The position numbers and the translations under genes were made by a program. From the IMG/VR virus record IMGVR_UViG_3300044646_000553: DNA of 64,000 nucleotides; one strand, 5' to 3'. Under the pieces are notes generated by a model that had not been told where the DNA came from, made no database searches, and saw only the letters and a list, made by a program, of their open reading frames with translations. Below, one piece after another: positions 2,261 through 60,291 of the stretch (its first letter is position 1; the number at the start of each line of letters is the position of its first letter). This DNA comes from an uncultured virus (IMG/VR IMGVR_UViG_3300044646_000553) (taxonomy: Duplodnaviria > Heunggongvirae > Uroviricota > Caudoviricetes).

Positions 2261-2269
2261 GAGATACAA

Positions 2270-4115: not shown

Positions 4116-4126
4116 GATAAACCCTA

Positions 4127-4135
4127 TGATATAAT
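4127..4135 (+). promoter_or_regulatory. Extended -10 promoter, probably leaderless transcript
   Basis: TGATATAAT with ATG 4142 only 6 nt after the hexamer and no SD in between. Confidence 0.65.
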
Positions 4136-4141
4136 CTTATT

Positions 4142-5682: not shown

Positions 5683-6428
5683 ATCTAGAAAACAAAAACA
5701 GAATAACTAAAGATATAGTTGTTTATGAAAACTTCATTGATGCAGATACTGCTGAAAAACTTGTAAAAGTTTTAGATAAACATGTCGAGGTTGGAACAAT
5801 CACATGGATGCCAATATCATTCTACGAATCCTATTCTTCTGTATTACCACAAGATGATGATGAGCATGTTATTGCAGAAGGTCTTCCTACTACTATTTTT
5901 TCAGACATGAAGCAGGGGATAATTGAAGCAGTAGCAAGTGTTCATGACCTTGATCCAAAGATAATTTCTCAAATTGGATATCATACTCAAAAGTGGGAGC
6001 CAGGAGCATACGCAAGAAAACATTCCGACAATACCGATGAGCACGGACACTCTGGTGCCTTTACAAGGAGTAGATATGCTGCATTCTTATATCTAAATGA
6101 TAATTTTGAAGGAGGAATGTTGCAGTTCCCAGATCAAGACATAAGCATACAGCCCAAAGTTGGAATGCTTGCTGCATTTGACGGGGGATTTAACAACATG
6201 CACGAAGTAACCCTTATCACTAGTGGAGTTAGATACACCATAGGTTCTTTTTGGGATGATCGAGAAGAAGATGCATACCCACAAGAAGTAAGAGATGCAT
6301 GGGCAGCAGAAATGAAAGAAACTAGAGCGCATCAAGAAATTGAAAGAGCCGAGTGGCAAGAACTCTTAAAACAGGGTTGGAAACTTGATGCTAATGGAAA
6401 TAAATATAAAGCAGATGATTTAAAATGA
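5679..6428 (+). CDS. 2OG-Fe(II) dioxygenase
   Basis: HSD...YLNDNFEGG...MHEV...VRY. Confidence 0.9.
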   Translation: MNLENKNRITKDIVVYENFIDADTAEKLVKVLDKHVEVGTITWMPISFYESYSSVLPQDDDEHVIAEGLPTTIFSDMKQGIIEAVASVHDLDPKIISQIGYHTQKWEPGAYARKHSDNTDEHGHSGAFTRSRYAAFLYLNDNFEGGMLQFPDQDISIQPKVGMLAAFDGGFNNMHEVTLITSGVRYTIGSFWDDREEDAYPQEVRDAWAAEMKETRAHQEIERAEWQELLKQGWKLDANGNKYKADDLK

Positions 6429-7087
6429 ATGTTTTTTTAAAAAAAGAGTTCGATGATGCTGGATATAACACTGAGGTTTTCCATGACCAGGTTTTGTTTA
6501 TTTATGATTTTTTAAAAGACGGAGAGTTAGAAATTTTATGGAACATAATTAATACCACTGACAACGCAGACTGGTCAATAGAGTATACTAAAAATCTTGC
6601 CAGGTTTTGCATGGAAAAATTTGGAAGGGACGATGTTGAAAATTTAATTTCAGAAGGTAAATTTGAAAAAACTCTTGGATGGGAAGATAAAAATCTAGAT
6701 ATTACCAAGAGACCTATAAGCACAGTTCTTCAAAGAAGGCTTGGAGAGTTACTTGAAAAAGCAGACCCATCCCTAGAACTCGCTGGGTTTGGAACTCTTC
6801 AAAGAATGCAAGAGGGCGTTGAACTAAAAGCACATACGGACCAGAATACCGATCCATCAATTAAATATGCTGCTATACTATATATTAATGATGACTACAA
6901 AGATGGAACTTTGTTTTTTTATAACAAAGAGAATTCAGATTTGAGGCCAAAGCCAGGAACCTTGCTTATTTTTCCAGGTAACGAAGAATATGAGCATGGA
7001 GTAAGACATGTTGGAGAAGGTCCTATTCGTTATGTGACTGTAGGATTTATGAAGACAATTGGTTTTTATGAAAATAATAAGTACTAA
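6425..7087 (+). CDS. 2OG-Fe(II) dioxygenase
   Basis: HTD...YINDDYKDG...EHGV...IRY. Confidence 0.9.
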   Translation: MNVFLKKEFDDAGYNTEVFHDQVLFIYDFLKDGELEILWNIINTTDNADWSIEYTKNLARFCMEKFGRDDVENLISEGKFEKTLGWEDKNLDITKRPISTVLQRRLGELLEKADPSLELAGFGTLQRMQEGVELKAHTDQNTDPSIKYAAILYINDDYKDGTLFFYNKENSDLRPKPGTLLIFPGNEEYEHGVRHVGEGPIRYVTVGFMKTIGFYENNKY

Positions 7088-7098
7088 GGAGAAATACT

Positions 7099-7728
7099 AT
7101 GGAAAGAGAAATACTTGAAGAAAAGGTCTACTATTACACAAACGTAATTGAAGACCCAAAGAAACTTGTTGATGCAATTGAAAATGACAACAAAGATCCT
7201 TGGGGTGAATGGATGGCGTGTAGTGGAGAAGCGTATGTTTATGGAACAGATAAAACCATTGCTCTAACTTCAGATGCTGATGAAAAAAATAAGTATATCT
7301 ATAATACCTTACAAAAAGCATTTGACGATGTAGCAAGAGACTATGCAAAAGCCCAAGGAATTACAGATGAACCAAAACTATTTCCACAGTATCCAATTAA
7401 AAAGTATCAGCCAGGAACATTTATGGGTGCACACTTTGATCAACAAGAAGGAGACCAAAGACTTAAAGTTTCTTTTGTTATGTATTTAAATGACGATTAT
7501 GAAGGCGGAGAAATTTCTTTTACAATTGCTTCTCCAGAAGGAGTACTAACTCAGCCTAGCCCAGAACCAGATTTTGATGATGCTAAAACTAGAGGAAACT
7601 ATAACTTTTATGTAAAGCCCAAGGCTGGAAGTATAATTGTTTTCCCTCCATCACCACCATATCATCACACCGCACACCTAGTAAAAAGTGGCGAAAAGAT
7701 TATGGTTCCACAGCACTGGATTCATTAA
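7099..7728 (+). CDS. 2OG-Fe(II) dioxygenase
   Basis: HFD...YLNDDYEGGE...HHTA...EKI. Confidence 0.9.
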   Translation: MEREILEEKVYYYTNVIEDPKKLVDAIENDNKDPWGEWMACSGEAYVYGTDKTIALTSDADEKNKYIYNTLQKAFDDVARDYAKAQGITDEPKLFPQYPIKKYQPGTFMGAHFDQQEGDQRLKVSFVMYLNDDYEGGEISFTIASPEGVLTQPSPEPDFDDAKTRGNYNFYVKPKAGSIIVFPPSPPYHHTAHLVKSGEKIMVPQHWIH

Positions 7729-9904: not shown

Positions 9905-12900
9905 ATGTCTACTCCATCAAACCTATACGCAGAAAAGGTGTTTGCAGAACACCCAACAGGTCTTTGGGCTCTTGACGATAATGCAGATTATATTTCTTTA
10001 ATTTCTGAACCACAAAGAAATCTATCTAACTGGACGATTACTGGCGGTACTCATCAAGACTATCCACAGTCAATAGGCGAACCATTCATCAATAGTTATG
10101 TAGGCAAAATTACAGCAACTCCAACTAGCAACGAATCAGCATCGATTGTTGCAATAAGCAATGAGATTATGGATCTGCGAGATATGAGCGATTACTTGGG
10201 AACATTTTCCGTTGGTGGATACTTTTATTCTGAAAGTGCCTATATTGCAGGTTTTGAAATTGGGTATCAATATGAAGATACGACCAGCGGACAGATTGTT
10301 ACACATCTAAAAAATTATGACACCATCATAAACAATAGTTGGGTTTTTATATCAGAAACATTTGATATACCACCAGACGATTCAAAAATACAACTAGTGT
10401 TTAAGATTAATTTTATTGGGGGATCAGAAATAGAAGATGTGTTTTTAATAAACGGAATTACTTTTGGGCAATGGTCAGAAGAGTTTGCATCAACTTCTCT
10501 AGGAACAACCTTAATAGATATTCCTTCAACAATTTCAATTGCTCCACAGAAAGGCCTTGTTGCAAAATGCTATGGATTACAAGAACTTGATGCCTACTAT
10601 TTGGCTTCTGAAAATATGCTTAAAGCAAAAAATTTAAGCATCCCAATGGTTTATGGAGCATCCAGCCTAACAGCATTATATCCAAATGGATCAAATCCAT
10701 CTCTTATAATTCCTGGAGTAGGACTTTTAAATGAGTCTGGAAAATTTAAAGAATACACTCTTGAAACTTGGTTAAGGGTAAACTCTTATACTAATGAAAC
10801 AAAAAAAATCATAGGACCAATCGCTTCGGATGATGGTATATATGTTGACGGTCCAGCGATAGGTCTTAAAGTTGGTAAAGAATATAGAACATATTATGTT
10901 GGAGAGTGGACAAGACCAATGCTCGTTCACTTAAGAATTGGAAAAGATGTTGCGTCTCTTGTCATTAATGGACAAGAAGTTATATCTTTAGGTTATGACA
11001 GAGAAACTATTTCTTTCCCAGAAATGTTAAACGAAAATCAAAAAAATCAGGACTGGATAGGATTTTATACACATGAAGATGTTTATCCAATAGAGATTGA
11101 TTGTGTTGGAATTTACCCATACGTGGTTGCAACCGCTATGGCAAAAAGAAGATTTGTTTTTGGTCAAGGTGTAGAAATACCAGAAAACATTAATACATCA
11201 TATAGCGGAACTTCCGTATTTATTGATTATGCTTTTGCAGATTATACTGCAAACTATTCTTATCCAAAGGTCGGATCTTGGCAACAAGCATTTAACGATA
11301 ACACATCAATTGTTAATAAATCTTTATCTGTACCTTCTGGGCCTCTTCCAGAAATATTTTTGTCATCAAAAACAGAAGAAGAGTTGTTGTCAGATTGCAA
11401 GTTGGCACAGTCATCTGATACAGAAAACTTTTTTTCTTTTAGACCTAACTCAAACTGGGAGTCTGTTTCTGGGTATTTATTTTTTAAAAACTTTGATTTT
11501 TTAAAAACTCCAATATCTGCATTTTATGGTTGTATGAAAATACCAGAGTTATCTCCTACTACTCAGACACTTTTTAGAATTGAAAAAGAAAACACCAATA
11601 GTTATTTTGCAATAGAACTAATCAACAATCAAATATCATACTCTATAAATTATGATGGAGTCTTAGAAACGATATACTCTCCAACTATTGCAGAGCCTGG
11701 AGAATTGATTGATGTTGGGCTAAATATTCCAGCGTTTGTTTCTAGGTTTGGAAATCCAGCCTCAGATTTCTTTGGATCTTTATCAGATTTAAGACTATAT
11801 GTAGGCGGTAAAAAAGACGAAACTTCTACATTTACGGGTAAAATTTATAAGATTGGCTTTTGTACAAAATACAACTTTCAAAAAATTAGGTCATTATTTA
11901 ATGAGATAGGTGTTCCAGTTTGGAACGAAGATCTTTTTGCTGTGTATCAGAACAATCAGTTAATAAATATAGACGGTGGAGTAGACACAACATCAATGTC
12001 ACCACATGGAGGAACAACGGATACGGCTAACGGCGCTATATCTGGAGGTGGTGTTTTTATATCTGATGAAGATTTTCTTATAGATCATGTGGCAAGTTAT
12101 ACTCTTTTGCCAGATGAAATTTTTGATACATACAGTTTAACAGTGTCTGCAAACGCATATTGGGAAGATCAAATTCCGCTAACATATTTTGCTGAATCAG
12201 TTTTAGATAAACGGGGGGATCAGTATTTTGACCTTGATTTTATACAGTTTAATATAGACTATCCAATACCATCAAAAACTATTGCAATAGAAACTGAACC
12301 AGTTGACTGGACATATGCAGAACTTGCTAATGAGTATGGTCTGCCAGTTCAAAGAACTTATGAGTCACTTGATAATTATTTATTTACTGGTTATAATGAT
12401 TATGAAGATCTTAAAAACAAAATAGCAAAAGACTATAGGTATGACACAGATGGAGCAATAGTAAAAACTTATGTTACATTTCAGTATACAGAGTTGGGGG
12501 CAAATCAAACTTCTTTTTATTTTACAAAAACAGAAAGACCTTCTAGAAATGGAATTTTAATTCCTGGCTCAGACTGGATGACTACAAAGTATGAAGTTGT
12601 AGACAATATGATAATTTATCCACCAGTTGGTGTAGACTTTAACGATCTCTCTATAGTTACGCATATTGATATAAATGTTAAAAATTCATCAACTCACAAT
12701 GTCAATATTAAAAAACTTTCTTACGCATCGCAGGCACTAAATGAATCAGACGCAAGTCCAATAGGAACTAGGTTTGGAACCCCTATATACCCATATACCA
12801 AAACTGGAATTTACTATAACTTTAAAAAGAATAATCCATTTTCTATATATACTGGATCATCTCCATATTTGTATCTTACAAAAACAAGTGGTATTCAAGT

Positions 12901-13621
12901 AAAGGGGCAGTACGATCCTATTGTTAATCGTGGACTTTCTATTCCTATGAATACAAGCAGAGCAAATAACTTTAAAGTAATAGCAATGCAAATGGCTGTT
13001 AGATTTGATGGAGACTACTTTCCATACGCACCAACTCAAATATTTGAAGTAGAAAGCAAAGGATCATATATAAAGTTTTACATGGTTGCAAATGACCCAA
13101 GTGGAAGAAGAGCAAAAATTTACGCAATTGATGCAAAGACTGGTTTAGTTCAAGACGGCATTGGGTTTTACTGGAACGGAAAGATTGTAAAAGAGCCAGT
13201 GCTAACTCTTCAAGAGTGGGGATTCTTAGGTATTAATTTTGCAGACAGTCTTGACTTTTCATTTTTTGAAGGGGCAACAAGATTGACTGGCCCACTAATG
13301 TTTAATAGTATTTCTTACTATCAATCAACAAACCTTCAAGAAGTCCAAAACATATCAGAAAGACCATGGTTTAGGGTAAAGGTTTTATCTGGCTTAGGTC
13401 TGGACTGGGAGTTCTGGAATGTTGGATCATTTAACTGGAATAAAGTTCTTGTGTTGGCTGAAACCAGTTATTATGGAGTAAACCCATCAGAGGTATACAA
13501 GAGTTATACTGGAACAAATAAATTAATTGTAGGAGACAACTTCCCATTGACAGTTGGAGATTATGCGTACTCTTTATATAATGACATTTCCTGGAATAAA
13601 TTTACGGTTGATCCCGTTTAA
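9905..13621 (+). CDS. Large putative virion protein with LamG/concanavalin A-like beta domains
   Basis: 1238 aa. N-terminal EHPTGLWALDD, YTLETWLRV and SLVINGQEV resemble LamG-type segments. Directly precedes the head module. Confidence 0.55.
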   Translation: MSTPSNLYAEKVFAEHPTGLWALDDNADYISLISEPQRNLSNWTITGGTHQDYPQSIGEPFINSYVGKITATPTSNESASIVAISNEIMDLRDMSDYLGTFSVGGYFYSESAYIAGFEIGYQYEDTTSGQIVTHLKNYDTIINNSWVFISETFDIPPDDSKIQLVFKINFIGGSEIEDVFLINGITFGQWSEEFASTSLGTTLIDIPSTISIAPQKGLVAKCYGLQELDAYYLASENMLKAKNLSIPMVYGASSLTALYPNGSNPSLIIPGVGLLNESGKFKEYTLETWLRVNSYTNETKKIIGPIASDDGIYVDGPAIGLKVGKEYRTYYVGEWTRPMLVHLRIGKDVASLVINGQEVISLGYDRETISFPEMLNENQKNQDWIGFYTHEDVYPIEIDCVGIYPYVVATAMAKRRFVFGQGVEIPENINTSYSGTSVFIDYAFADYTANYSYPKVGSWQQAFNDNTSIVNKSLSVPSGPLPEIFLSSKTEEELLSDCKLAQSSDTENFFSFRPNSNWESVSGYLFFKNFDFLKTPISAFYGCMKIPELSPTTQTLFRIEKENTNSYFAIELINNQISYSINYDGVLETIYSPTIAEPGELIDVGLNIPAFVSRFGNPASDFFGSLSDLRLYVGGKKDETSTFTGKIYKIGFCTKYNFQKIRSLFNEIGVPVWNEDLFAVYQNNQLINIDGGVDTTSMSPHGGTTDTANGAISGGGVFISDEDFLIDHVASYTLLPDEIFDTYSLTVSANAYWEDQIPLTYFAESVLDKRGDQYFDLDFIQFNIDYPIPSKTIAIETEPVDWTYAELANEYGLPVQRTYESLDNYLFTGYNDYEDLKNKIAKDYRYDTDGAIVKTYVTFQYTELGANQTSFYFTKTERPSRNGILIPGSDWMTTKYEVVDNMIIYPPVGVDFNDLSIVTHIDINVKNSSTHNVNIKKLSYASQALNESDASPIGTRFGTPIYPYTKTGIYYNFKKNNPFSIYTGSSPYLYLTKTSGIQVKGQYDPIVNRGLSIPMNTSRANNFKVIAMQMAVRFDGDYFPYAPTQIFEVESKGSYIKFYMVANDPSGRRAKIYAIDAKTGLVQDGIGFYWNGKIVKEPVLTLQEWGFLGINFADSLDFSFFEGATRLTGPLMFNSISYYQSTNLQEVQNISERPWFRVKVLSGLGLDWEFWNVGSFNWNKVLVLAETSYYGVNPSEVYKSYTGTNKLIVGDNFPLTVGDYAYSLYNDISWNKFTVDPV

Positions 13622-21353: not shown

Positions 21354-22007
21354 ATGGCATACAGCCGTGGTTCAAGTAGTAACATCATCGTAGGTGCAGC
21401 AGCACTATTTACGCATGATGCAGGTCCAATCGGACTTGACAGCGCAGGAAAGATTACTGATGCTCAAGCAGCAACAGATCTACCAGCATTCACCGCATCC
21501 TCAACATCCTATAAGGATACTGTAGATGCAGATGAAGCATACACAAACGTAGGCTACACATCAAATGGTTTGGAACTCGCATTCCAACCTGATTTCGGTG
21601 AGGTAGCAGTAGATCAACTTCTCGACGTTGCTCGTTTATTCAAGCAAGGTATGACAGTTAATCTAAATACATCTTTCGCAGAGGCAACACTAGAAAATCT
21701 TCTAGTAGCAATTGCAGCAGATGACACAGATCTTACATCAGCATCAGGAGTTTCACAACTCAAGATGTCTGCAGGAGATATTGGTGACGTTCCATTAGAG
21801 CGTGGCCTTGTAGCAGTAGGTCCAGGATCTGGTTCCGCTGCAACACCAAAGGAAAGAATTTACGTTGCATACCGTGCACTCTCAATTGAGAATGTAACAG
21901 TATCAGCAAAGCGTGATGAGGCTTCAATGTTTGAAGTATCATTCCGTCTTCTTCCAAACGATGACGCATCATACGGTAGAATCGTAGATCGTTCTCTAAC
22001 AGCATAA
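21354..22007 (+). CDS. Major tail tube protein
   Basis: NIIVGAA, VGYTSNG, VDQLLD, FAEATLENL. Own TATAAT (21297-21302), SD GAGGTG and a downstream terminator. Confidence 0.85.
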   Translation: MAYSRGSSSNIIVGAAALFTHDAGPIGLDSAGKITDAQAATDLPAFTASSTSYKDTVDADEAYTNVGYTSNGLELAFQPDFGEVAVDQLLDVARLFKQGMTVNLNTSFAEATLENLLVAIAADDTDLTSASGVSQLKMSAGDIGDVPLERGLVAVGPGSGSAATPKERIYVAYRALSIENVTVSAKRDEASMFEVSFRLLPNDDASYGRIVDRSLTA

Positions 22008-22079: not shown

Positions 22080-22760
22080 ATGGCAACAAGCATTTATGAA
22101 AAAATAAAGTTTAGTCTTATAGACGGTACAGTCATTGAGGCTGGACCTCTTAAAATAAAATATCTTAGAGAGTTTTTAGAAATTTTTGAAACTATAAAAG
22201 AAGCAAAATCAGACGATGAATCTATATCTGTTTTAGTTTCTTGTTGTTTAGTAACAATGAAACAATATGCCCCACACATCAAAACCTTGGAAGATGTTGA
22301 AGATAATTTAGACCTTCCAACTATATATAAAGTAATTGACATTGCAGCAGGAATTAAGATAAATCAAAAGTCTGAAGACACGGTTAAGTCTCAAGCAGTA
22401 GACAGTGGGTCTTCATGGGAAACGCTAGATCTTGCAAAACTTGAGTCAGAGGCTTTTCTAATAGGGATATGGAAAGATTATGAAGAACTAGAAGAGTCTC
22501 TTTCAATGCCAGAACTTACAGCAACTATTAAAATCAAAAGAGAGTTAGACTACAGTGATAAAAAGTTTGCTGCTGCCATGCAAGGAGTGGATCTTGATAA
22601 AAATTCAGGGAATCCAAATGCATGGGAAGACATGAAGGCCAAAGTATTCAGTGGTGGTAAGGCCGTAGATGGAAAAGACATTCTTGCATTACAAGGAAAG
22701 AATGCAGAAAAGGCTGGGTTTGGAATTGGAATGGGCCTTACTTATGAGGTTTACGAATAG
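22080..22760 (+). CDS. Tail assembly chaperone, long (gpGT-like) form
   Basis: Between major tail and tape measure. N-half is paralogous to ORF 22816; C-half (WKDYEELEESLSMPEL) resembles a gpT-like domain. Confidence 0.65.
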   Translation: MATSIYEKIKFSLIDGTVIEAGPLKIKYLREFLEIFETIKEAKSDDESISVLVSCCLVTMKQYAPHIKTLEDVEDNLDLPTIYKVIDIAAGIKINQKSEDTVKSQAVDSGSSWETLDLAKLESEAFLIGIWKDYEELEESLSMPELTATIKIKRELDYSDKKFAAAMQGVDLDKNSGNPNAWEDMKAKVFSGGKAVDGKDILALQGKNAEKAGFGIGMGLTYEVYE

Positions 22761-22815: not shown

Positions 22816-23139
22816 ATGGCAACTGCCACAGAAGAAAAAACAGTAACTCTGATCGACGGAACCAAGATCAAGGTAAGACCACTAAAAATCTCACTACTTC
22901 GTCCGTTTATGAAGAAGTTTGAAGATATCGCAAAGGTAGCAGAAGATAATGAGAAGTCAATGAATCTGCTTATGGAGTGCGTACAAATTGCAATGCAACA
23001 ATACAAGCCAGAATTGGCAGAAGACAAGGAAGCCCTAGAAGAAAATATGGATCTTCCTACAGTATACAAGATCGTTGAAGAGGCATCTGGAATTAGACTT
23101 TCAGACGCTACTCTACTTGGCAATCTTGTAAACAATTAA
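22816..23139 (+). CDS. Tail assembly chaperone, short (gpG-like) form
   Basis: LIDGT, PLKI and DLPTVYKIV are shared with ORF 22080; directly before tape measure. Confidence 0.65.
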   Translation: MATATEEKTVTLIDGTKIKVRPLKISLLRPFMKKFEDIAKVAEDNEKSMNLLMECVQIAMQQYKPELAEDKEALEENMDLPTVYKIVEEASGIRLSDATLLGNLVNN

Positions 23140-23159: not shown

Positions 23160-26100
23160 ATGGCTGATGTTCAATCCAATATTCATGTAAATATTGATAC
23201 GTCGGATGCTCTAGCAAGTTTAAAACTTCTACAGCGTCAAATATCAGCCTTCCACACACAAATGTCGAAGTCTGGCGCAGCAGCGTCAGCGGTAGCAGCA
23301 AATCAAGCACAAAACTTGATGAACAGCATAAATGCAACTGGACAATTCCAGGCATCGATGCGAACGGTAGCAACAAGTACCGAACATTTTACTAATGCTC
23401 TAGAAAGAAACAAGTTAACATCTAGAGAGTATTTTAGATACACTGGCGCAGCCACAAAAACTTTTGGTAGACTATTTAAGTCTGAATTTGAAACAATAAA
23501 CAAGGTTGCACGAGAGCGTGTAAAAGATATACAGACCCAGTATATTAAGATGGGCAGAGGAGCCAATGGTGCTCTTCAGGCTATTGCAGTAAGACCGCTT
23601 ACCCTAGACATGAAAAATCTGGGTACACAAACAGCAATGGCAGCACAAAGACAGCAACTACTAAATCAATTATTAAAGCAAGGCTCTACCAATCTTTTAA
23701 ACTTTGGTAAAAATACTCAATGGGCTGGTCGTCAGTTGATGGTTGGTTTTACAGTTCCATTAATGTTGCTTGGCTCTACCGCTGCTAAGACCTTCATGAA
23801 ACTTGAAGAGCAGGCTATTAGGTTTAAGCGTGTCTATGGTGAAATGTTTACCACACAAGAAGAAACCGATGCAATGGTTAAAGATATCCAGTTGCTTGCA
23901 AAAGAATATACCAAGTATGGCGTTGCTGTAGAAAAAACTATGGAGATGGCTGCCAATGCTGCAGCAATGGGTAAGATGGGGGAAGAACTAAAGGCTCAAG
24001 TAATGGAAGCAACTCGCCTTGCTGTTCTTGGTGGTGTTGAGCAAGAGCAGGCCCTTGAGACAACTATTTCTGTAACCAATGCGTTTGGTGTCGCTGCAGA
24101 AGATTTAGCAAAGAAAATTGACTTCCTTAACGCAGTAGAAAACCAGACTGTCGTATCTATTGAAGATTTAACAATTGCTATTCCAAAGGCTGGACCAGTT
24201 GTTCAACAACTTGGTGGAGATGTAGAAGACCTTGCATTCTTCCTGACTGCTATGAAAGAAGGTGGAATTAATGCATCAGAAGGCGCTAACGCACTTAAAT
24301 CTGGTCTTGCATCTTTAATTAATCCATCTGAAAAAGCATCCAAGATGCTTGCAGGACTTGGCATAAATATCAAGGGTATTGTAGAAGCAAATGCTGGAGA
24401 TGTTAAAGGAACTGTAGTAGACTTTGCAGCAGCACTAGATACTTTAGATCCTCTTAATCGTGCTAGAGCAATTGAGCAATTATTTGGAAAGTTTCAGTTC
24501 TCAAGATTATCAACGCTATTTCAAAACGTAACAGCACAGGGAACACAAGCGTCACGAGTTTTACAACTTACAAAAGCAACTACAGAAGAATTAGCAATTT
24601 TGTCTGAACGAGAATTAGCAAGGATAGAAGATTCAACTACCTACAGGTTTAAGAAAACAATTGAAGATCTAAAGGTTTCTCTTGCTCCAGTTGGAGAACA
24701 GTTTTTAAAAGCCTTGACGCCCATTGTTGAGTTTGTTGGTAAAGTTCTAGAAAAGTTTAATGGCTTAGGTGACGGAAGTAAAAGATTTATTACAATACTT
24801 ACAGTTGCCCTAGGTGCAATTGGGCCAGTAGCCCTTATGACATTTGGTTTGCTTGCTAACGGTGTTGCAAATATAATTAAGTTATTTGCAGCAATGAAGT
24901 CATCTTTTAATAGAGCGGGATCATCAACACAGATTTTAGGGCAACAAACAGATTATTTAACTAAAGAACAGATGGAGGCTTCTGCGGTAGCAGCATCTTT
25001 AGATCAGGTTCATCAAAGATTACGACAAACATTTACTTCAGAAACAGCAGCAGTAAACGCTTTGGCTTTAGCATACAGAAACGCAATCGCAGCACAGGTA
25101 GGGTTTACTGGACCAGTAGGAAAAGGAAGAATGCCTCAAAGCAAAAAATATTCTAATGGTATTACAAATATTCCAGGGCCAAAGGGTGCAGGAGATATTG
25201 TCCCAATTCTTGCTTCTCCTGGAGAAGCAGTTATTCCAGCAGATGCAGCACAGGATCCAGCAAATAAGCCATTTATTGCCCATATGGTTGCAGGAAAAAA
25301 GTTACCAGGATTTAAAAAAGGTACAGAAGAAATTAAAAAAGATAACAATGTAGTTAATAAAACTCACGTAGGTGGAAAAAGCACTCCAAAAGACATCCAA
25401 GAAATTATAAGAACAAACCCATACATGAGTGCAGATCAAAAAGCAAAACTGCTTGCGATGGAGCAAATCTTTAAGTCTCAAGGTTTACCAGCAATGACAA
25501 CAACCAAGCACGGCTTAATGTTTGATTTCCCTGAGTGGATGAATAAGATAATGCCAAGTACAACTAGTGGAGTATCTAAGGAAGAGTTTATAAAAGAGTG
25601 GGAACGCCGTGGTCCAGAAAAATGGAAGGCTTCTGGAATGAATGCAACTCAAGCAGCATCAATGGATAGAGCATTCCGTGAAGCAATAGGAATGAGCACT
25701 AAGCCATATATAAATGATTCAATTATGGACGATCTGTTTAGAAACAGAGTGCCAGAACTGTTAGGTCCTGACGACAAGGGATTACAAAAAGCACAACAAC
25801 TTTATGCAACAGATTACAGATTTAACATGGGCAAAGGACTTGGTACTACTCCAGAAGAAAGCAGAAAAATTCTTCAAAATGCAAAAGATAAAGGATTTAT
25901 AAAAGACTTTAGTATTAAAGAAGGCTTTGGTACAGGAGAAGGAAGAACAGATAAGATTGTAACAAAGTCTTCAACTGTCACTCTAAATGACGGAACTGTT
26001 GTAAACATGAACAGACTTGGAACAGGAACAACGCCTGTTATAAGTCAAAAGACTTCTAAAGGGCCAGTAACAGCACCAGAGTTAATTCAAGAAAACATGG

Positions 26101-29100
26101 AAAAAGCACAGACTCAAGAGTCAAGATTAAAGGCAATAGCAGATGATGCAGCAAAGACAAAAACTGGTCAAAAGAAACCTACAAACTTTGGAAGACAAAT
26201 ATCTGGAACTTCTGGAAGAAGTTTTGCTGTAAGAGAAATTGGTGGACTTTATGAAAAACCAAATGGTCAAAAAGTATTTGTAAAGCCAATGATGAGCGAA
26301 CTAGATGCTATAGCAGAAAAAAGAGCAACCGATTTTGCTAGAAGTGTTCAAGGACTAGACACTCCAAAACAGACCATAAGCACAATGATAGATCCAACAG
26401 ACCCAACAGGAAAAAGAAAGATTATTGTTTTAGAGTCAAAGTTTGACCCAAAGTATGCCGATTCAATTCCAAAAAGTTTTACTCAGGATCAATATTTTAG
26501 ACAATTGGTGTCCGCTAACCTTCGTGGAGACAAAGACCTTAAAAGAGGAAACCTAGGAGGAAATGTATTAACAGATGTTGGAACTGCGGGGGTATTTGAT
26601 AAGGCTTCAGGTGTAAGAACACTTTCAGAAAAAATGCCTTCTCTTGCTGAAATGGCAGAAGAAAATTTAAAGGGCGTTCCAGGAAAACAGGCAAAAAATT
26701 CACCAAATTGGTTTGCTAATGCAACAAAAGACATTGCATTAAATATGAGCCCAGACGAATATGATCGTGCTATGAAATCAGAAATTCAAAGACAACTTGC
26801 AAAAGCAGAGCCATACGTAGCAAAAATGCCTTTAACCGATCCTTTAAGGCCTCAGTATGTTATGATGCTAGAAAGACTTAAAGAAGGCTTAAAAGTAGAC
26901 TGGAAAACTTTACATCAAAAACATAGTTCTATTTTGGTAAAGCCTGACGAAGTTTCAGAAGATGAAAACGAAAAAACTAAAAAAATAAAATCAGAGCCAA
27001 ACAATCGTAAATTTAAATCTAATAGCCCAAAAGATACAAGAATTGCTCCAGCATCTATAGCCCCATCAGTTCGTCAAGGACCAAGAGGTATAAAAATTCC
27101 TGGTTTTTCAGAAGCACCTATGTCATCTCAAGAGGTAAAACAAAGAATTGCTAAAGAGCACTCTCAAGCAAAAGCAGCAGCATCTAGAACTGCATTATAC
27201 GGCTCAGGACCAATAGACGCTGAGCAAAAGTCTTTAAGGCGTCAACTAAAAAAACTAGAAGGAAATGGAAAAACATTAAATAATGTAGCAGCAAAAGTTG
27301 CAGTTACACAAAAAGTAGTAACAGATAACATGACTGAAAATGTTAAAAAACAAGGTGTAGCAGCAAGAATGCAACAAAAACTAAAGGCAAAGTACAACGC
27401 AAGCAAAGAAGCAAAAGCAGCAGCAAAAGCAGCAGGCACTCCAAAAACTGGCATGGGCATGGGTGGTGCAGCAATGGGTGTTGCTGGTGTGGCAATGGTT
27501 GGATCAATGATTCCAGGTTCAGTTGGAGAAATGTTTCAAAAATTAATGATGCCACTTATGGGGCTTGCAATGATTCTTCCAATGCTAAGTAGCAGAATGG
27601 GTGCACTCGCTGTAGGTGTTGGTGCCATTACTGCTGCATACATATATCAAAGAATGCAATTTGATAAAGCACAAGATGCAGCAATGAAATTGACAGAAGC
27701 AATGGGTTCTGGATCTGAATCAATTAGAAATCTCTCAAAATTTGCAAACACAGTTTCTGCAGGAGAAACTATGGACAGAAAAAGAAAAGAGGCCTTTTCT
27801 CCATTCCAAATAAAAACAGGGAAAACAACATTTGGAGAATCTTTCATGGCAGGCGAAGACGGAAAGGCTATGGCTAAAAATGTTGGAGAAACAATAAAAT
27901 CATCTGGAAGTAAGCAAGTAGCACAAGACCAAGTATTTAATCAGATGGCAACTGCTGTTGCTTCAGGAGCATTAAGCCCAGCACAAGCGAGAAGCATTGT
28001 AGGAAATCTTGCTCAAGAACTTGGAGACTATTCTTTTGGAATTAGTGTAAATGCAAAATTGATTGAATTCTTAGGACCAAACGGAGAAAACATTCTTAAG
28101 GATCCAATAGGAGTTAGAGTAAAGATACTGCAAGATACAAGAGAAAAAATGAACTTGTCAACAGAAGCAGCAAGAAAGGCTGGAGGGTTTACTGGCACAG
28201 ACAAACTTAAGACTGGAGGCTTTACTCTTGGAGGTGCTGCAGCAGGTGCTGGAACAGGTTTTGTTGCTGCTGGATTAGGCGCTGCTGGCGCAGCAGCAAT
28301 GGGAGCAACTATTGGTAGTGCAGTCCCAGTTGTAGGAACTATTATTGGCGCAGCACTTGGCGCAGGCGTTGGGTACTTCTTGTCTAAAAAAGATAGAAAT
28401 AAAAGAATTGGAGAAGCCTCTGGTGCAAGCGTTGCTATGCAAAAAATGGCTCTTGAGCAGCAGCAAGAAATGATGGACTCTGTAGAATTGCAATATATAA
28501 AAGAGATGGAAATTGCTAAAGCCAAAGGCGATCAAAATAAAATAGATGAACTTACACTACAGTATTCCAAAGATAGAGTGCGCTTACTTGAACAAAATGC
28601 AGCGCTGGTTGGAGATATTCAGAAAAATTTTAGTGAATCCGAAGGAGCAACTAGAAAAGCACTTATGACAGGTGTAGACAAAGCAATTACAAAAAGATAT
28701 AAAGGAACCAATTTAGAAGATGTCGTTCCTCTTGCTACATCAGGAATAAATGATTCTAAATTAAAAGATGAAATAAAGTATACATTAAAAATGGAAATGG
28801 CAAGTGGACAAATAGACCCATTACAAATGATTGAAATATTTGATAAGTTTGGTAAGGACGCAACATCTATGGAGGCTGTTGCTACCATTATAACAAAGTT
28901 TGGTGGAAAGTTTGCAAATGAAGCAATGGGAGTTGTGGCAATGTTCAAAGATCCAAAACAATCTGCAGATTTTGTTGCTCGACTATCATTACAAGATCCA
29001 GATATGGCAGCAAAAGATCTTCAACTATTCCAAAAAATTTCTCAATCAGGACAGGTCATAGATCTCGATGTTGCTTTAAACTATTACAACACAGATGAAG

Positions 29101-31934
29101 ATGCTCGTGAAGCCTTAAAAACAGATTTAGCAGAAATAGAGGCCCTCAAAGGCAAGGTTGATTTAAAGATCGCTGCAACAGTTCTTGGCAAAGAAGAGAT
29201 GGAAGCACTTCGTAAAAATAGTGAGCATTTTTTAGGACTAGATGATTTTCAACAAAAAGTGTATATGCAAAACCTAAGAGTTATGTTCGGCATGGAAGGC
29301 GACCCTGCAATGCAGGAACAGTATAAAAATTGGCTGGCTATGGATGGAAACAAAGGAAAAACTTTTGATGATTTTGCTAATGCTAAAAGCACACAGTTAA
29401 CAGATATTGTTAAATCAGATTCTGGTGCTGTAGTTCCAGGCAATACTCCAGGAAACAAGAAAGGTCCAGACGCTTCTCCACTAGACGACCTATTAAAGAA
29501 ACTAAGAGATGTTCGTAAAAATACTATAAAGGTTACCAAAGGTTTTGATGCTTCCTTTAAATCATTAAACAAGATATTTGGTGGAAAGAAAACTATTGAA
29601 GTTTTCAGCGGTATTGAAAACGATATGAGAAGATTAGGCGCAGGAGAAGACCTGATTGATCTTATTGTTGGTATGGATCCAGCAGAGTTTGAAAAACAAA
29701 AAAACAAATTGTTTAAATTTAAAAACGGTGAAATTGTAGCATTAAAAGATGGTGCAAAAAGTATTGGTGATGCCCTTCAGTCAATCGCACTTGGAGATTT
29801 TGTTAGCACACAAGATAGAATGGTTAAGAATATTGGCAATCAAAATGTTGCGCTTGAAAGACTTCAGGCTGCTGGAGTAGAGGGTTCTATTGCCCTAGAC
29901 ATGGTTGCAGACTCTGGTACTGCAGCAGCAATTGCTAACAGTAAATTGTCAGACAAACAACTTAAAAAAGTTATAAAAGCAGCAAAAGAAGCAACAAAAG
30001 CACAAAAACAAATGGCTGCTACTGAAGCAATTACCAAAAAAATATCAGAAGTAAAAGACGAAGGAAAAGCATATACAAACTTAATTCAAGCAATAGGACA
30101 ATTTACCAGAGAAGAAATAGAGTTGATTATTAATAGTGCAGAGGCGATGGGACAATTGGCTATAGGTATTGATACGCCAGCCACGCTCAAAGTATTTAGG
30201 GACTTGCTAAATAGTTTAAAAAAAGAAGCAGAAAACAAATTTAAAATTAAATTATTAACTATAGAGGGAATGCAAGAAATATTTGATACTGGGTTTAGCA
30301 ATGCAATGGAATCTTTTGATGTAAAAGAAACAGCACTTAGACTTAGATTTAATGTTGACAACAAAGCCCTAAATGATGAAATTAAGAAGGCGGAAGAAAA
30401 AATTGCCTTAGCACAAGAAAAAATAAGAATAGAAGAAGTTGGATTAAAGCAGATTGAAGATCAAGAAGAAAAAGTTAATGAGCAATACGATAAAAGGCTT
30501 GAGGCTTTAGACGAGGTTGAAAAGGCAAATGCCTCAATATCTCAACAACAAAAGGGACAGTTAACTCTTGCCGAAGCCCTAACCTCTGGAGACATTGCTG
30601 CTGCTGCTCGTGCAGCCCAGGAAATGAGAGCACAACAGGCTGCAGACGCTGTTACAAAACAAAAAGAGGCTTTAGAGCAATCGAGAGAATATGAACTTTC
30701 ACAACTAAGATCAGAAGATGGAAGAAGTAGAATTGAGATTGAAACAAAAATTAAAGAATTGCAAGATCAAATTTATGAGATTGAGACAAAAAGCCTTGAG
30801 CCTAATAGAGAAACCTTACGACTAAACGAACTTGCATTAGAAAATGCAATAGCAGGATTAACTACTCTAGGAAAAACTAGAGAGCAATGGGAAGCAATTA
30901 AAAATGCTGTTGACCTTGCAAGAATAGCAAGTGCTCAATTTATTAAGTCAATGCAAGATGCTTTAAATATTCAAGGAAGTCTTATCAAGGGATACCAGGA
31001 GCAAAAGGTAAACACACCAGTTATAACTCCAGAACAAAAAGTGACATGTCCAGAAGGCTATGAGTTTGATGGAACTAATTGCGTAATGAAGGGTGCAACA
31101 GTTATTGTATGCCCTGCTGGATTTAAGCAGGTCGGAGACAAGTGCGTTAAAGAAGGAACAACAGAAATAATTTGTCCTGATGGCCACACACTGGTTGGAA
31201 ATAATTGCGTAAAAGAAGCAGAAAAAAAGACAGTCTGTCCTGAAGGATATAATTTGGTAGGAAATGACTGTGTTAAGGTGGGTCCAACAAAAACAGTCTG
31301 TCCTGATGGATATGACCTAGTAGGAAATGACTGCATCAAGCAGGGCAACAAGGTTGATGATCCTATAATTCCAGCAACTACACCAACCAAAACACCAGCC
31401 ACAACAAAGTATGTTGTAAAACCAGGAGATACGCTATCAGAAATTGCAGCAGACAATGATATTACTTTAAAACAGTTGTATGCTTTAAATCCTAAATTTA
31501 AAACTGACCCTAAGTATAATGGTGGAAATATGATTTGGTCAGGAACTACTGTTAAACTTCCTGGTGATGATGGAACAGTAGGCGGTGGGGGTGGAGGAAG
31601 GAATGTCCAAATTCTCTCAAAGGGTGGCCTCATAAACCCAATGCGATTTGCTGTAGGTGGTTTTGCAAAAGGTACTGACACAGTACCAGCAATGCTAACT
31701 CCAGGGGAGTTCGTTATGAGCAAGTATGCTGTCGATTCTTACGGAATAGATAATATGAAAAAAATAAATAATGGAGAATCGGTTGGCGGATCAGTGTATA
31801 ATAATACATATGCATTAACGGTTAATGCTAGAACAGATGCAAATCCAAATGATATTGCACAAGCAGTGATGGCAACAATTAAGCAGGTTGACGACAGAAG
31901 AATTAGGGGGGTGGCAATAAGTGGCAGAAGATGA
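23160..31934 (+). CDS. Tape measure protein with accessory domains (kinase-like, CPxG Cys repeats, LysM)
   Basis: 2924 aa. TP901-type core (GRQLMVGFTVP, DFLNAVENQT, GINASEGANALKS), hydrophobic segments, coiled coils, C-terminal GTDTVPAMLTPGEFV, and LysM YVVKPGDTLSEIA. Confidence 0.9.
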   Translation: MADVQSNIHVNIDTSDALASLKLLQRQISAFHTQMSKSGAAASAVAANQAQNLMNSINATGQFQASMRTVATSTEHFTNALERNKLTSREYFRYTGAATKTFGRLFKSEFETINKVARERVKDIQTQYIKMGRGANGALQAIAVRPLTLDMKNLGTQTAMAAQRQQLLNQLLKQGSTNLLNFGKNTQWAGRQLMVGFTVPLMLLGSTAAKTFMKLEEQAIRFKRVYGEMFTTQEETDAMVKDIQLLAKEYTKYGVAVEKTMEMAANAAAMGKMGEELKAQVMEATRLAVLGGVEQEQALETTISVTNAFGVAAEDLAKKIDFLNAVENQTVVSIEDLTIAIPKAGPVVQQLGGDVEDLAFFLTAMKEGGINASEGANALKSGLASLINPSEKASKMLAGLGINIKGIVEANAGDVKGTVVDFAAALDTLDPLNRARAIEQLFGKFQFSRLSTLFQNVTAQGTQASRVLQLTKATTEELAILSERELARIEDSTTYRFKKTIEDLKVSLAPVGEQFLKALTPIVEFVGKVLEKFNGLGDGSKRFITILTVALGAIGPVALMTFGLLANGVANIIKLFAAMKSSFNRAGSSTQILGQQTDYLTKEQMEASAVAASLDQVHQRLRQTFTSETAAVNALALAYRNAIAAQVGFTGPVGKGRMPQSKKYSNGITNIPGPKGAGDIVPILASPGEAVIPADAAQDPANKPFIAHMVAGKKLPGFKKGTEEIKKDNNVVNKTHVGGKSTPKDIQEIIRTNPYMSADQKAKLLAMEQIFKSQGLPAMTTTKHGLMFDFPEWMNKIMPSTTSGVSKEEFIKEWERRGPEKWKASGMNATQAASMDRAFREAIGMSTKPYINDSIMDDLFRNRVPELLGPDDKGLQKAQQLYATDYRFNMGKGLGTTPEESRKILQNAKDKGFIKDFSIKEGFGTGEGRTDKIVTKSSTVTLNDGTVVNMNRLGTGTTPVISQKTSKGPVTAPELIQENMEKAQTQESRLKAIADDAAKTKTGQKKPTNFGRQISGTSGRSFAVREIGGLYEKPNGQKVFVKPMMSELDAIAEKRATDFARSVQGLDTPKQTISTMIDPTDPTGKRKIIVLESKFDPKYADSIPKSFTQDQYFRQLVSANLRGDKDLKRGNLGGNVLTDVGTAGVFDKASGVRTLSEKMPSLAEMAEENLKGVPGKQAKNSPNWFANATKDIALNMSPDEYDRAMKSEIQRQLAKAEPYVAKMPLTDPLRPQYVMMLERLKEGLKVDWKTLHQKHSSILVKPDEVSEDENEKTKKIKSEPNNRKFKSNSPKDTRIAPASIAPSVRQGPRGIKIPGFSEAPMSSQEVKQRIAKEHSQAKAAASRTALYGSGPIDAEQKSLRRQLKKLEGNGKTLNNVAAKVAVTQKVVTDNMTENVKKQGVAARMQQKLKAKYNASKEAKAAAKAAGTPKTGMGMGGAAMGVAGVAMVGSMIPGSVGEMFQKLMMPLMGLAMILPMLSSRMGALAVGVGAITAAYIYQRMQFDKAQDAAMKLTEAMGSGSESIRNLSKFANTVSAGETMDRKRKEAFSPFQIKTGKTTFGESFMAGEDGKAMAKNVGETIKSSGSKQVAQDQVFNQMATAVASGALSPAQARSIVGNLAQELGDYSFGISVNAKLIEFLGPNGENILKDPIGVRVKILQDTREKMNLSTEAARKAGGFTGTDKLKTGGFTLGGAAAGAGTGFVAAGLGAAGAAAMGATIGSAVPVVGTIIGAALGAGVGYFLSKKDRNKRIGEASGASVAMQKMALEQQQEMMDSVELQYIKEMEIAKAKGDQNKIDELTLQYSKDRVRLLEQNAALVGDIQKNFSESEGATRKALMTGVDKAITKRYKGTNLEDVVPLATSGINDSKLKDEIKYTLKMEMASGQIDPLQMIEIFDKFGKDATSMEAVATIITKFGGKFANEAMGVVAMFKDPKQSADFVARLSLQDPDMAAKDLQLFQKISQSGQVIDLDVALNYYNTDEDAREALKTDLAEIEALKGKVDLKIAATVLGKEEMEALRKNSEHFLGLDDFQQKVYMQNLRVMFGMEGDPAMQEQYKNWLAMDGNKGKTFDDFANAKSTQLTDIVKSDSGAVVPGNTPGNKKGPDASPLDDLLKKLRDVRKNTIKVTKGFDASFKSLNKIFGGKKTIEVFSGIENDMRRLGAGEDLIDLIVGMDPAEFEKQKNKLFKFKNGEIVALKDGAKSIGDALQSIALGDFVSTQDRMVKNIGNQNVALERLQAAGVEGSIALDMVADSGTAAAIANSKLSDKQLKKVIKAAKEATKAQKQMAATEAITKKISEVKDEGKAYTNLIQAIGQFTREEIELIINSAEAMGQLAIGIDTPATLKVFRDLLNSLKKEAENKFKIKLLTIEGMQEIFDTGFSNAMESFDVKETALRLRFNVDNKALNDEIKKAEEKIALAQEKIRIEEVGLKQIEDQEEKVNEQYDKRLEALDEVEKANASISQQQKGQLTLAEALTSGDIAAAARAAQEMRAQQAADAVTKQKEALEQSREYELSQLRSEDGRSRIEIETKIKELQDQIYEIETKSLEPNRETLRLNELALENAIAGLTTLGKTREQWEAIKNAVDLARIASAQFIKSMQDALNIQGSLIKGYQEQKVNTPVITPEQKVTCPEGYEFDGTNCVMKGATVIVCPAGFKQVGDKCVKEGTTEIICPDGHTLVGNNCVKEAEKKTVCPEGYNLVGNDCVKVGPTKTVCPDGYDLVGNDCIKQGNKVDDPIIPATTPTKTPATTKYVVKPGDTLSEIAADNDITLKQLYALNPKFKTDPKYNGGNMIWSGTTVKLPGDDGTVGGGGGGRNVQILSKGGLINPMRFAVGGFAKGTDTVPAMLTPGEFVMSKYAVDSYGIDNMKKINNGESVGGSVYNNTYALTVNARTDANPNDIAQAVMATIKQVDDRRIRGVAISGRR
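31047..31334 (+). repeat. Five 21-aa CPxG(Y/F/H)-x6-C repeats inside the tape measure protein
   Basis: CPEGYEFDGTNC, CPAGFKQVGDKC, CPDGHTLVGNNC, CPEGYNLVGNDC, CPDGYDLVGNDC. Confidence 0.9.
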
Positions 31935-60181: not shown

Positions 60182-60291
60182 TGCGTATTAAAATTATTAA
60201 GTTTGTAGTAAAGGCTTTAGGCTATGAATGGTCTGGAGATGAACTTAAACTGCCTGTTTGGTATGTGAAGGAAAAGAAAAAGAATAAATAA
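60181..60291 (+). CDS. Small basic protein (36 aa, not in ORF track)
   Basis: MRIKIIKFVVKALGYEW...; TAATG coupling at both ends. Confidence 0.6.
   Translation: MRIKIIKFVVKALGYEWSGDELKLPVWYVKEKKKNK

What the first reader, a model, noticed from the sequence alone, without database searches (positions are those of the whole stretch)
26180..26930. Kinase-like (HipA/PI3-4K-type) domain embedded in the tape measure protein
Seen (about aa 1010-1255): Gly-containing strand IGGLYE, then KVFVKP (beta3 Lys), AIAEKRA (helix C Glu), LRGDKDLKRGNL (D-x4-N catalytic loop, 26526-26555) and VLTDVG (DFG-equivalent, Asp at 26574). Established: HipA and PI3/4-kinase-like enzymes have this K...E...DxHxxN...D order, and tape measure proteins are ejected into the cell envelope at infection. 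Inference: the virion delivers an enzyme that phosphorylates a host target before phage gene expression (takeover or anti-defence). The usual His is Lys here, so activity is not guaranteed. The segment lies in a non-helical insert bracketed by LPGFKKG (about 25300) and IPGFSEA (about 27100), which also holds a second unassigned domain, suggesting a swappable cargo slot.
Basis: partly seen in the sequence, partly recalled or inferred. Interest (0 to 1): 0.8.

Follow-up and report, generated by a model that had tools for sequence, protein, structure and literature searches.

The report
Kinase-fold cassette inside phage tape measure
The giant tail "ruler" protein of this uncultured phage, probably of actinobacteria, carries an exchangeable module that folds like an atypical kinase and keeps its catalytic residues, so the phage may bring a ready-made kinase into its host, though neither activity nor delivery has been tested.

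Summary

Of the 120 closest TMPs, chosen by their N-terminal core, 13 lack D2. They carry unrelated sequence between the same breakpoints (aa ~720, at LPGF, and aa 1313-1335, just after IPGF). Three relatives add a cytidylyltransferase-like domain there.

Delivery into the host and phosphorylation of a host target remain inference. The Thermus phage P23-45 TMP-fused virion RNA polymerase (PMC10770324) is an experimental precedent for such delivery.

Earlier notes of this scan reported the same cassette on other DNA. The listing showed 8 of 40 notes that held the search words, and 7 of those 8 read it the same way.

The parts
21354..22007 (+). Tail-tube-like / Ig-domain protein upstream of the TMP
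   Evidence: phrog_2175 E 2.2e-31. Weak PF25681 Phage_TTP_17, 21 bits, below its 27-bit cut-off. Same position as the 'protein with Ig domain' in Streptomyces phage Coruscant.
22080..23139 (+). Two chaperone-like ORFs (22080-22760 and 22816-23139) directly upstream of the TMP
   Evidence: Both match phrog_10504. Syntenic with the two annotated tail assembly chaperones of Coruscant.
23160..31934 (+). Tape measure protein ORF, 2924 aa
   Evidence: phrog_10030 E 3.4e-99. TIGR01760 100.4 bits against a 28.8-bit cut-off.
23901..24488 (+). TP901-type TMP core (aa 248-443)
   Evidence: PF10145, 87.1 bits against a 33.2-bit cut-off.
24780..24896 (+). Hydrophobic segment 1 (aa 541-579)
   Evidence: Kyte-Doolittle 19-residue window >= 1.4.
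25194..25238 (+). Internal DIVPILASPGEAVIP motif (aa 679-693), a copy of the C-terminal TMP motif
   Evidence: The first ~640 aa align end to end with a 625-position TMP family (phrog_4704, positions 13-622).
25296..25322 (+). KKLPGFKKG (aa 713-721): upstream boundary of the slot
   Evidence: Homology to the 13 D2-less TMPs ends at aa 719-720.
25356..26054 (+). D1 (aa 733-965): fast-evolving accessory domain, fold unassigned
26172..26945 (+). D2 (aa 1005-1262): atypical protein-kinase-like domain
26214..26246 (+). Loop between strand 1 and strand 2 with invariant G1019, S1021 and G1029 (candidate phosphate-binding loop)
   Evidence: Invariant. The role is inferred from its position in the model's strand order.
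26283..26285 (+). K1042 in VFVKP (strand 3 lysine)
   Evidence: Invariant. Lies in model strand 39-44.
26316..26318 (+). E1053 in ALAE (helix C glutamate)
   Evidence: Shown at 1.0 of 242 after rounding and kept in >=90% of 36. Q in L063. Lies in model helix 48-63.
26523..26552 (+). Catalytic loop R1122-G-D1124-K-D1126-L-x-x-x-N1131
   Evidence: R, D, D, L and N are invariant in 36 sequences. Follows model helix 110-123.
26574..26582 (+). D1139-V-G, the DFG equivalent (metal-binding Asp)
   Evidence: D is invariant.
27090..27164 (+). IKIPGFSEA (aa 1311-1319) and the downstream boundary of the slot (aa 1313-1335)
   Evidence: Homology to D2-less TMPs resumes at aa 1313-1335 in 12 of 13. In P0313 it resumes only at aa 2104.
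27456..27629 (+). Hydrophobic, glycine-zipper-like segment 2 (aa 1433-1490)
28257..28385 (+). Hydrophobic Gly/Ala-rich segment 3 (aa 1700-1742)
31047..31349 (+). Five CPxG(Y/F/H)...C repeats (aa 2630-2730)
31410..31562 (+). LysM peptidoglycan-binding domain (aa 2751-2801)
   Evidence: PF01476, 32.7 bits against a 20.9-bit cut-off.
31677..31721 (+). C-terminal DTVPAMLTPGEFVMS motif (aa 2840-2854)
   Evidence: The C-terminal 95 aa are among the best conserved parts.

Best explanation
D2 (aa 1005-1262) is a catalytically competent phosphotransferase of the protein-kinase-like fold. It belongs to a sequence family not yet described and is built into the tape measure protein as an optional, recombination-exchangeable cassette. 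Proposed mechanism: the TMP is packed in the tail. At infection it leaves the virion ahead of the DNA. Its hydrophobic segments (aa 541-579 and 1433-1490) enter the host membrane. The ~850 residues between them, including D1 and D2, end up at the cytoplasmic face, where ATP and Mg are available. There D2 phosphorylates a host component before any phage gene is expressed. A protein Ser/Thr target is most likely, because the nearest structures CotH, CtkA, Fam20C and HipA are protein kinases; a membrane lipid is the alternative. D1, which diverges much faster, would be a targeting or regulatory partner. Shown here: TMP identity, kinase fold, conserved catalytic residues, optional and exchangeable nature, strong sequence constraint. 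Inferred: packaging of the cassette, ejection, membrane topology, activity and substrate. My odds: kinase-like fold 0.95; active nucleotide-dependent enzyme 0.75; acts in the newly infected cell 0.5.
Confidence: 0.55

Rival explanations
1. Assembly-time kinase. D2 works in the producing cell, not the next host. It would phosphorylate phage structural proteins or the TMP itself (for example the Ser/Lys-rich linker after D2) to help assemble or stabilise the very long tail, as CotH phosphorylates spore coat proteins during coat assembly.
Against: Thirteen of the 120 closest TMPs build equally long proteins without D2, so assembly does not need it. The next-best structures (MavQ, CtkA, LepB) are enzymes delivered into another cell. 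The linker is poorly conserved, detected in 83 of 200. The slot's mosaic evolution, with the N-core 97% identical but D2 48-61% identical in P0103 and P0046, looks more like a conflict module than a structural helper.
Confidence: 0.2
2. Kinase fold without ordinary phosphotransfer. D2 would either catalyse another nucleotide-dependent reaction known from this fold (AMPylation as in SelO, glutamylation as in SidJ; both recalled, not tested), or be a nucleotide-binding or structural plug with no catalysis.
For: The fold alone does not fix the chemistry. No sequence family membership was found. The catalytic-loop position +2, His in HipA/PI3K, is not conserved. The N-to-D spacing is unusually short.
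Confidence: 0.12
3. Chance motif in a low-complexity or helical stretch of the TMP, with no real domain.
For: The bare motif pattern occurs in 78 of 500 shuffles of the protein.
Against: A confident globular model. 158 clusters of homologues in 1.84 billion representatives, 128 of them at E<=1e-30. Invariant catalytic residues. Uniformly kinase-like structural matches.
Confidence: 0.01

Closest known systems
CotH, atypical Ser/Thr kinase of the Bacillus spore coat (PDB 5JD9/5JDA; Pfam PF08757)
   Different: 10-11% identity. No PF08757 match at E<=10, and none in the near-identical record G001. D2 is an internal cassette of a phage tail protein, not a free-standing coat protein.
Thermus phage P23-45 gp96: TMP whose N-terminal part is a virion RNA polymerase (PMC10770324, abstract read)
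   Same: A giant TMP carrying a cytoplasm-acting enzyme that works before phage gene expression. This is the only experimental precedent I found for the proposed delivery route.
   Different: The cargo is a two-barrel RNA polymerase at the N-terminus, not a kinase in an internal slot. No exchangeable cassette is described in the abstract. It is a different phage lineage and host.
   Different: No Pfam hit. hhalign against E. coli HipA gives probability 0.04. The His of DxHxxN is absent and that position varies. There is no HipB-like partner and no helical solenoid.
Kinase domains of phage and plasmid 'polyvalent proteins' (Iyer et al. 2017, PMC5512222, passages read)
   Same: Kinase-superfamily domains inside very large multidomain proteins of phages, proposed to enter the host with the DNA and modify host proteins.
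   Different: Those domains are described as having lost the whole C-terminal subdomain and as occurring in (pro)phages of Verrucomicrobia-Chlamydia and Bacteroidetes. D2 keeps a helical C-lobe and sits in a TMP. The paper has 0 occurrences of 'tape measure'. No sequence comparison was possible.
TMPs with cell-wall hydrolase motifs, e.g. mycobacteriophage TM4 (PMC1796659, title and abstract start in listing only)
   Same: An enzymatic module embedded in a siphophage TMP that acts at infection. Relatives of this TMP also carry M23 or NlpC/P60 domains, and this one carries LysM.
   Different: Those modules act on peptidoglycan outside the membrane and need no ATP. D2 needs a nucleotide, and therefore the cytoplasm.
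Sle1-type TMP-related effectors of actinobacterial contractile injection systems (PMC13277306, abstract read)
   Same: A TMP-like scaffold with structurally and functionally diverse, exchangeable functional domains, in Actinobacteria.
   Different: These are cellular contractile injection systems, not a phage tail. No kinase is mentioned in the abstract.

Membership tests
Protein-kinase-like (PKL) fold superfamily | Bilobal fold: N-lobe beta-sheet with helix C, helical C-lobe, nucleotide cleft between them | tested here: met
   [not shown]
Protein-kinase-like (PKL) fold superfamily | Strand-3 Lys and helix-C Glu | tested here: met
   K1042 invariant. E1053 kept in >=90%, with one Q. Both lie in the expected elements of the model. 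Salt-bridge geometry was not checked.
Protein-kinase-like (PKL) fold superfamily | Catalytic loop Dx4N and metal-binding Asp (DFG equivalent) | tested here: met
   D1126, N1131 and D1139 are invariant in 36 sequences down to 25% identity, with one V at D1126 in P0214.
Protein-kinase-like (PKL) fold superfamily | Phosphotransfer activity | not testable with these tools
   Needs biochemistry.
CotH (PF08757) | Match to the family profile above its cut-off | tested here: not met
   No hit at E<=10 for the window protein. None among 33 members at E<=1. None in G001.
HipA (PF07804 HipA_C) | Sequence-profile membership | tested here: not met
   No Pfam hit. hhalign of the 33-sequence profile against E. 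coli HipA gives probability 0.04.
PI3K/PI4K (PF00454) | Profile match and DRHxxN catalytic loop with His | tested here: not met
   No Pfam hit. The loop is GDKDLxxxN with no conserved His.
Tape measure protein, TP901 family | PF10145 / TIGR01760 core above cut-off | tested here: met
   87.1 bits against 33.2. 100.4 bits against 28.8.
Tape measure protein, TP901 family | Gene position between the tail tube/chaperone genes and the distal tail genes | tested here: met
   Gene order matches annotated Streptomyces phage Coruscant. The N-terminal 560 aa are 32% identical to its TMP.
Tape measure protein, TP901 family | Presence in the tail lumen, and tail length set by protein length | not testable with these tools
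   No cultured member exists.
Polyvalent-protein kinase clade (Iyer et al. 2017) | [quoted passage not shown] | tested here: inconclusive
   D2 keeps a helical C-lobe (helices 163-257), which argues against membership.

The most novel reading that the evidence does not exclude
The slot between the two PGF motifs is a general injection bay through which this lineage of large actinophage-like siphoviruses delivers interchangeable cytoplasm-acting enzymes in the first seconds of infection: the kinase cassette, a HIGH-superfamily nucleotidyltransferase, and others still unrecognised. D2 itself might not be a protein kinase. It could be a lipid or small-molecule kinase. Its fold neighbours include the phosphoinositide kinases MavQ, LepB, PI4KII and Vps34. 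The probable hosts, actinobacteria, are from my recollection among the few bacteria with abundant phosphatidylinositol in the membrane that the TMP penetrates. In three relatives D2 is joined to a cytidylyltransferase-like domain, a pairing that elsewhere makes nucleotide-activated small molecules (recalled: the Kennedy pathway, HldE).
Probability: 0.15. Interest if true: 0.9.

Novelty: new variant of a known kind. Interest (0 to 1): 0.68.

Why it matters
Phage kinases known so far are made after infection. A kinase carried in the virion would act before any phage gene is read, at the point where host defences decide the outcome. Here the kinase sits in a defined, recombination-exchangeable slot of the one protein that leaves the tail first. 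That slot offers a natural system for studying how siphophages inject proteins. It also offers a catalogue of candidate early-takeover or anti-defence enzymes (kinase, nucleotidyltransferase, unknown folds), and possibly a scaffold for delivering chosen proteins into bacteria. D2 also adds a new sequence family to the atypical kinases: 158 clusters at 50% identity, invisible to Pfam and NCBIfam. It is specific to an abundant but uncultured phage lineage (88 IMG/VR contigs).

Tried and rejected
Sequence-level family assignment led nowhere.
- Pfam and NCBIfam on the domain and on the whole insert gave only a sub-threshold SMP_C2CD2L hit.
- PDB sequence search with the single protein found nothing.
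- Two PDB profile searches gave only de novo designs and a WD40-repeat artefact on an 18-residue stretch.
- Pfam on 33 members found no kinase family.
- hhalign against E. coli HipA gave probability 0.04.

Cultured phages and cellular genomes gave nothing.
- tblastn against 50,697 phage records found none.
- Genome contigs pattern scans with the protein and with A2 found none, but only one to six peptide patterns were used, so sensitivity is low.
- A1 was too diverse for pattern scans.

Free-standing forms were not found. The profile search among proteins of 134-475 aa gave 7 hits, all on contigs of 6.6 kb or less, so I read them as fragments.

My interim reading was that the slot only varies by presence or absence of D1. 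The N-core-based search overturned it.

Tools that did not run:
- Complex prediction (D1 with D2, ATP and Mg) was not available.
- The window's own assembly is not held.

The window has no tRNA.

Literature searches for a kinase in a TMP and for CotH-type kinases in phages found no such report. These cover the open-access library only.

Full report
THE GENE. The finding lies in one 8775-nt ORF, 23160-31934 on the + strand, encoding 2924 aa. It is a tape measure protein (TMP).
- PF10145 matches aa 248-443 with 87.1 bits against a 33.2-bit cut-off.
- TIGR01760 gives 100.4 bits.
- phrog_10030 'tail length tape measure protein' gives E 3.4e-99.
- The upstream genes are portal, protease, capsid, an Ig-domain tail protein and two chaperone-like genes. 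Minor tail proteins follow.
- This order matches the annotated Streptomyces phage Coruscant (Stanwilliamsviridae, 133.7 kb). Its 2133-aa TMP aligns only with aa 7-567, at 32% identity.
All sizeable ORFs are on the + strand. The window's own assembly is not held. The nearest record is a 46-kb IMG/VR contig rated 42% complete, so the genome is probably about 100 kb. A WhiB gene (62996-63277, 45.9 bits against 23.6) and the nearest cultured relatives (capsid 41% identical to Streptomyces phages) point to an actinobacterial host.

THE OBSERVATION. The motif pattern alone is weak evidence: it occurs in 78 of 500 shuffles of the protein.

CONSERVATION.
- A word-indexed search with aa 700-1330 found 632 TMP-sized proteins at E<=1e-3 among 7999 scored candidates.
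- An exhaustive phmmer search of aa 981-1297 against 1.84 billion representatives found 158 clusters (150 at E<=1e-10, 128 at E<=1e-30). Nearly all are proteins of 2000-4400 aa.
- In 242 aligned copies, G1019, S1021, G1029, K1042, E1053, P1069, S1093, Q1115, D1126, N1131, D1139, F1185 and Y1233 are shown at 1.0 after rounding.
- In a clean 36-row alignment reaching down to 25% identity, G12, G20, S22, G30, K43, A51, P70, Q116, R123, D125, D127, L128, N132, D140, A150, S151, N170 and Y234 (numbering of aa 1000-1270) are invariant, and E54 is kept in 90% or more.
- Exceptions seen: V for D1126 in P0214 and Q for E1053 in L063.

- Foldseek against the PDB gave no hit at E<=1e-3. Every listed row is a kinase or kinase-like enzyme (BRAF 3e-3, CylM, PI4KIIa, actin-fragmin kinase, CtkA, LepB, HipA).
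- The second look over Foldseek's top 999 chains agrees: CotH 11.8/11.5, CtkA 9.9, LepB 9.3, PI4KIIb 9.2.
- Against predicted viral structures there are 10 hits at E<=1e-3. All are large phage or archaeal-virus proteins of 584-1340 aa. Two are named ADP-ribosyltransferase and two PI3K/PI4K catalytic domain. Kinase-like domains in big multidomain virion-type proteins may therefore be more widespread.

NOT A MEMBER OF A DESCRIBED SEQUENCE FAMILY. Pfam and NCBIfam give nothing relevant. PDB sequence and profile searches give nothing relevant. hhalign against E. coli HipA gives probability 0.04. The ESM Atlas neighbours that carry a family name are LepB_N, PI3_PI4_kinase (19% of members) and HipA_2 (21%), at scores of 0.92-0.93. 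These are leads only, but they are consistent with the fold.

DISTRIBUTION.
- 88 IMG/VR contigs encode a relative, and 80 were kept as loci.
- None of 50,697 cultured-phage records does.
- Two low-sensitivity scans of prokaryotic genomes found none.
- Short proteins carrying the domain all sit on contigs of 6.6 kb or less and look like fragments.

THE SLOT. I first looked only at D2-selected homologues.
- The distance from the TMP core to D2 is under 150 aa in 69 of 209 and 250-400 aa in 129 of 209.
- The longer inserts form one transitive family (D1). It has three subgroups of 73, 47 and 9 members, linked at about 25% identity, plus 11 singletons.
- D1 of the window type is detected in 18 of 80 loci and in 67 of 200 long TMPs.
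This looked like presence or absence of D1 beside a fixed D2.

The decisive test was a search with the N-terminal core alone (aa 1-560). It returned 5151 hits, and the best 120 are 86-100% identical in that region.
- Of those 120, 71 were already known to carry D2. Of the 49 new ones, 36 carry D2 and 13 do not. So 107 of 120 have the cassette.
- The 13 without it are complete TMPs of 2543-2734 aa. They align with the window protein over aa 1-720 (78-82% identity).
- In 12 of the 13, alignment resumes at aa 1313-1335. In P0313 it resumes only at aa 2104.
- Between these points they carry 306-412 aa of unrelated sequence, in three types with 9, 2 and 2 members. These segments have no Pfam match and no similarity to D1 or D2.
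- The upstream breakpoint falls at the LPGF motif (aa 715-718; the D2-less proteins have VPGY there). The downstream one falls at or up to about 20 residues after IPGF (aa 1313-1316).
- The motif itself is enriched but far from universal. [ILVM]PG[FMLY] occurs upstream in 62, downstream in 83 and on both sides in 33 of 212 homologues, against 11.4 and 4.2 expected from shuffles.
- The slot evolves independently of the core. P0103 and P0046 are 97% identical to the window protein in the N-core but only 48% and 61% identical in D2.
- Three relatives (P0278, P0301, P0112) carry a cytidylyltransferase-like domain at aa 728-856, at the start of the slot. PF01467 scores are 34.8, 27.7 and 25.7 bits against a 21-bit cut-off, with D2 further on. 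NCBIfam gives only sub-threshold FAD-synthetase similarity.

CONSTRAINT. Across 200 TMPs of 2600 aa or more, I measured median identity as identical residues per segment length in the best HSP.
- N-core: 0.68-0.76.
- C-terminal 95 aa: 0.58.
- D2: 0.51.
- Helical body: 0.21-0.31.
- D1 and the linker after D2: 0, that is, undetected in most.
Most of this set was retrieved through D2 or the aa 700-1330 insert, so finding D2 in 200 of 200 is by construction. The level of identity is not.

ARCHITECTURE AND PROPOSED MECHANISM. The slot lies between hydrophobic segments at aa 541-579 and aa 1433-1490. A third hydrophobic segment is at aa 1700-1742. Five Cys-repeats, a LysM domain and a conserved C-terminal motif lie near the tip end. 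I propose that the cassette leaves the tail with the TMP, is held at the inner face of the membrane, and phosphorylates a host component before phage transcription. Every step after 'it is a conserved kinase-fold cassette in a TMP' is inference. The main physical objection, from general knowledge, is the fit of three folded ~29 kDa domains in a narrow tail lumen. The main support is the P23-45 precedent: a TMP whose N-terminal part is a virion RNA polymerase that transcribes pre-early genes (PMC10770324, abstract).

PRIOR KNOWLEDGE.
- Enzymatic modules in TMPs are known: peptidoglycan hydrolase motifs (PMC1796659, listing only) and the P23-45 virion RNA polymerase.
- Kinase domains in phage 'polyvalent proteins' were described by Iyer et al. 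(PMC5512222, passages read). That paper has no occurrence of 'tape measure'.
- TMP-like effectors with exchangeable functional domains occur in actinobacterial injection systems (PMC13277306, abstract).
- Four literature searches for a kinase in a TMP found none. These cover the open-access library only, and supplements were not consulted.
- Notes from this same scan report the same cassette on other DNA, with CotH as nearest structure. A sequence look-up returned one. A word look-up counted 40 notes holding the search words in at least 33 genomes and listed eight, of which seven give this reading. They are AI notes, not independent evidence. I reached the same reading before seeing them. One of them, e1-5948450, gave me the P23-45 paper.

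VERDICT. The fold, the conservation and the slot are supported. The function remains untested. This is a new sequence family of a known fold, in a new variant of a known arrangement (a TMP carrying an enzyme).

Noticed in passing
window 780-7728 and 60291-60866: Eight paralogous 2OG-Fe(II) oxygenase genes (PF13640, 33-58 bits against a 27-bit cut-off). Seven are in one block (780-1493, 2270-2953, 4142-4816, 4777-5682, 5679-6428, 6425-7087, 7099-7728) and one lies apart. So many copies in one phage is unusual, and their substrate is unknown.
   Followed up: no
window 62996-63277: A WhiB-type transcription factor (PF02467, 45.9 bits). From general knowledge this family is confined to actinobacteria and their phages, so the host is probably an actinobacterium, despite the window's low G+C of 34-42%.
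   Followed up: partly
relatives P0278, P0301, P0112, aa 728-856: A cytidylyltransferase-like (PF01467, HIGH-superfamily) domain sits at the start of the same TMP slot, upstream of the kinase cassette. Its subfamily is unresolved. This is a second candidate cytoplasm-acting enzyme carried by a TMP.
   Followed up: partly
[not shown]
   Followed up: partly
relatives P0305-P0321 (13 proteins), about aa 717-1129: TMPs without the kinase carry three unrelated slot fillings of 306-412 aa, with no family match. The one printed example (P0310) is rich in A, K, Q and E and may be helical.
   Followed up: partly
window 9905-13621: A 1238-aa ORF between the ribonucleotide reductase and portal genes has no PHROG or Pfam match. 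Large unannotated proteins next to the portal gene are often head-internal or ejected proteins (recalled).
   Followed up: no
window 25194-25238 and 31677-31721: The motif D-x-VP-x-L-x-PGE-x-V occurs twice, once internally (aa 679-693) and once at the C-terminus (aa 2840-2854). The first ~640 aa align end to end with a 625-position TMP family (phrog_4704). The protein looks like a short TMP extended by the slot and a long second body.
   Followed up: partly
relatives P0261 (aa 2198-2291) and P0255 (aa 3303-3391): Peptidase_M23 (80.6 bits) and NlpC/P60 (26 bits) domains occur elsewhere in kinase-bearing TMPs of this family. These giant TMPs can therefore carry several enzymes at once.
   Followed up: no
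window 55022-56869: A 615-aa ORF with a PA14 domain and a PT repeat, possibly an adhesin or receptor-binding protein placed away from the tail gene block.
   Followed up: no
window 31047-31349: Five tandem ~21-residue repeats of the form CPxG(Y/F/H)xxxGxxC(V/I)K lie just before the LysM domain near the TMP C-terminus. No family was assigned.
   Followed up: no
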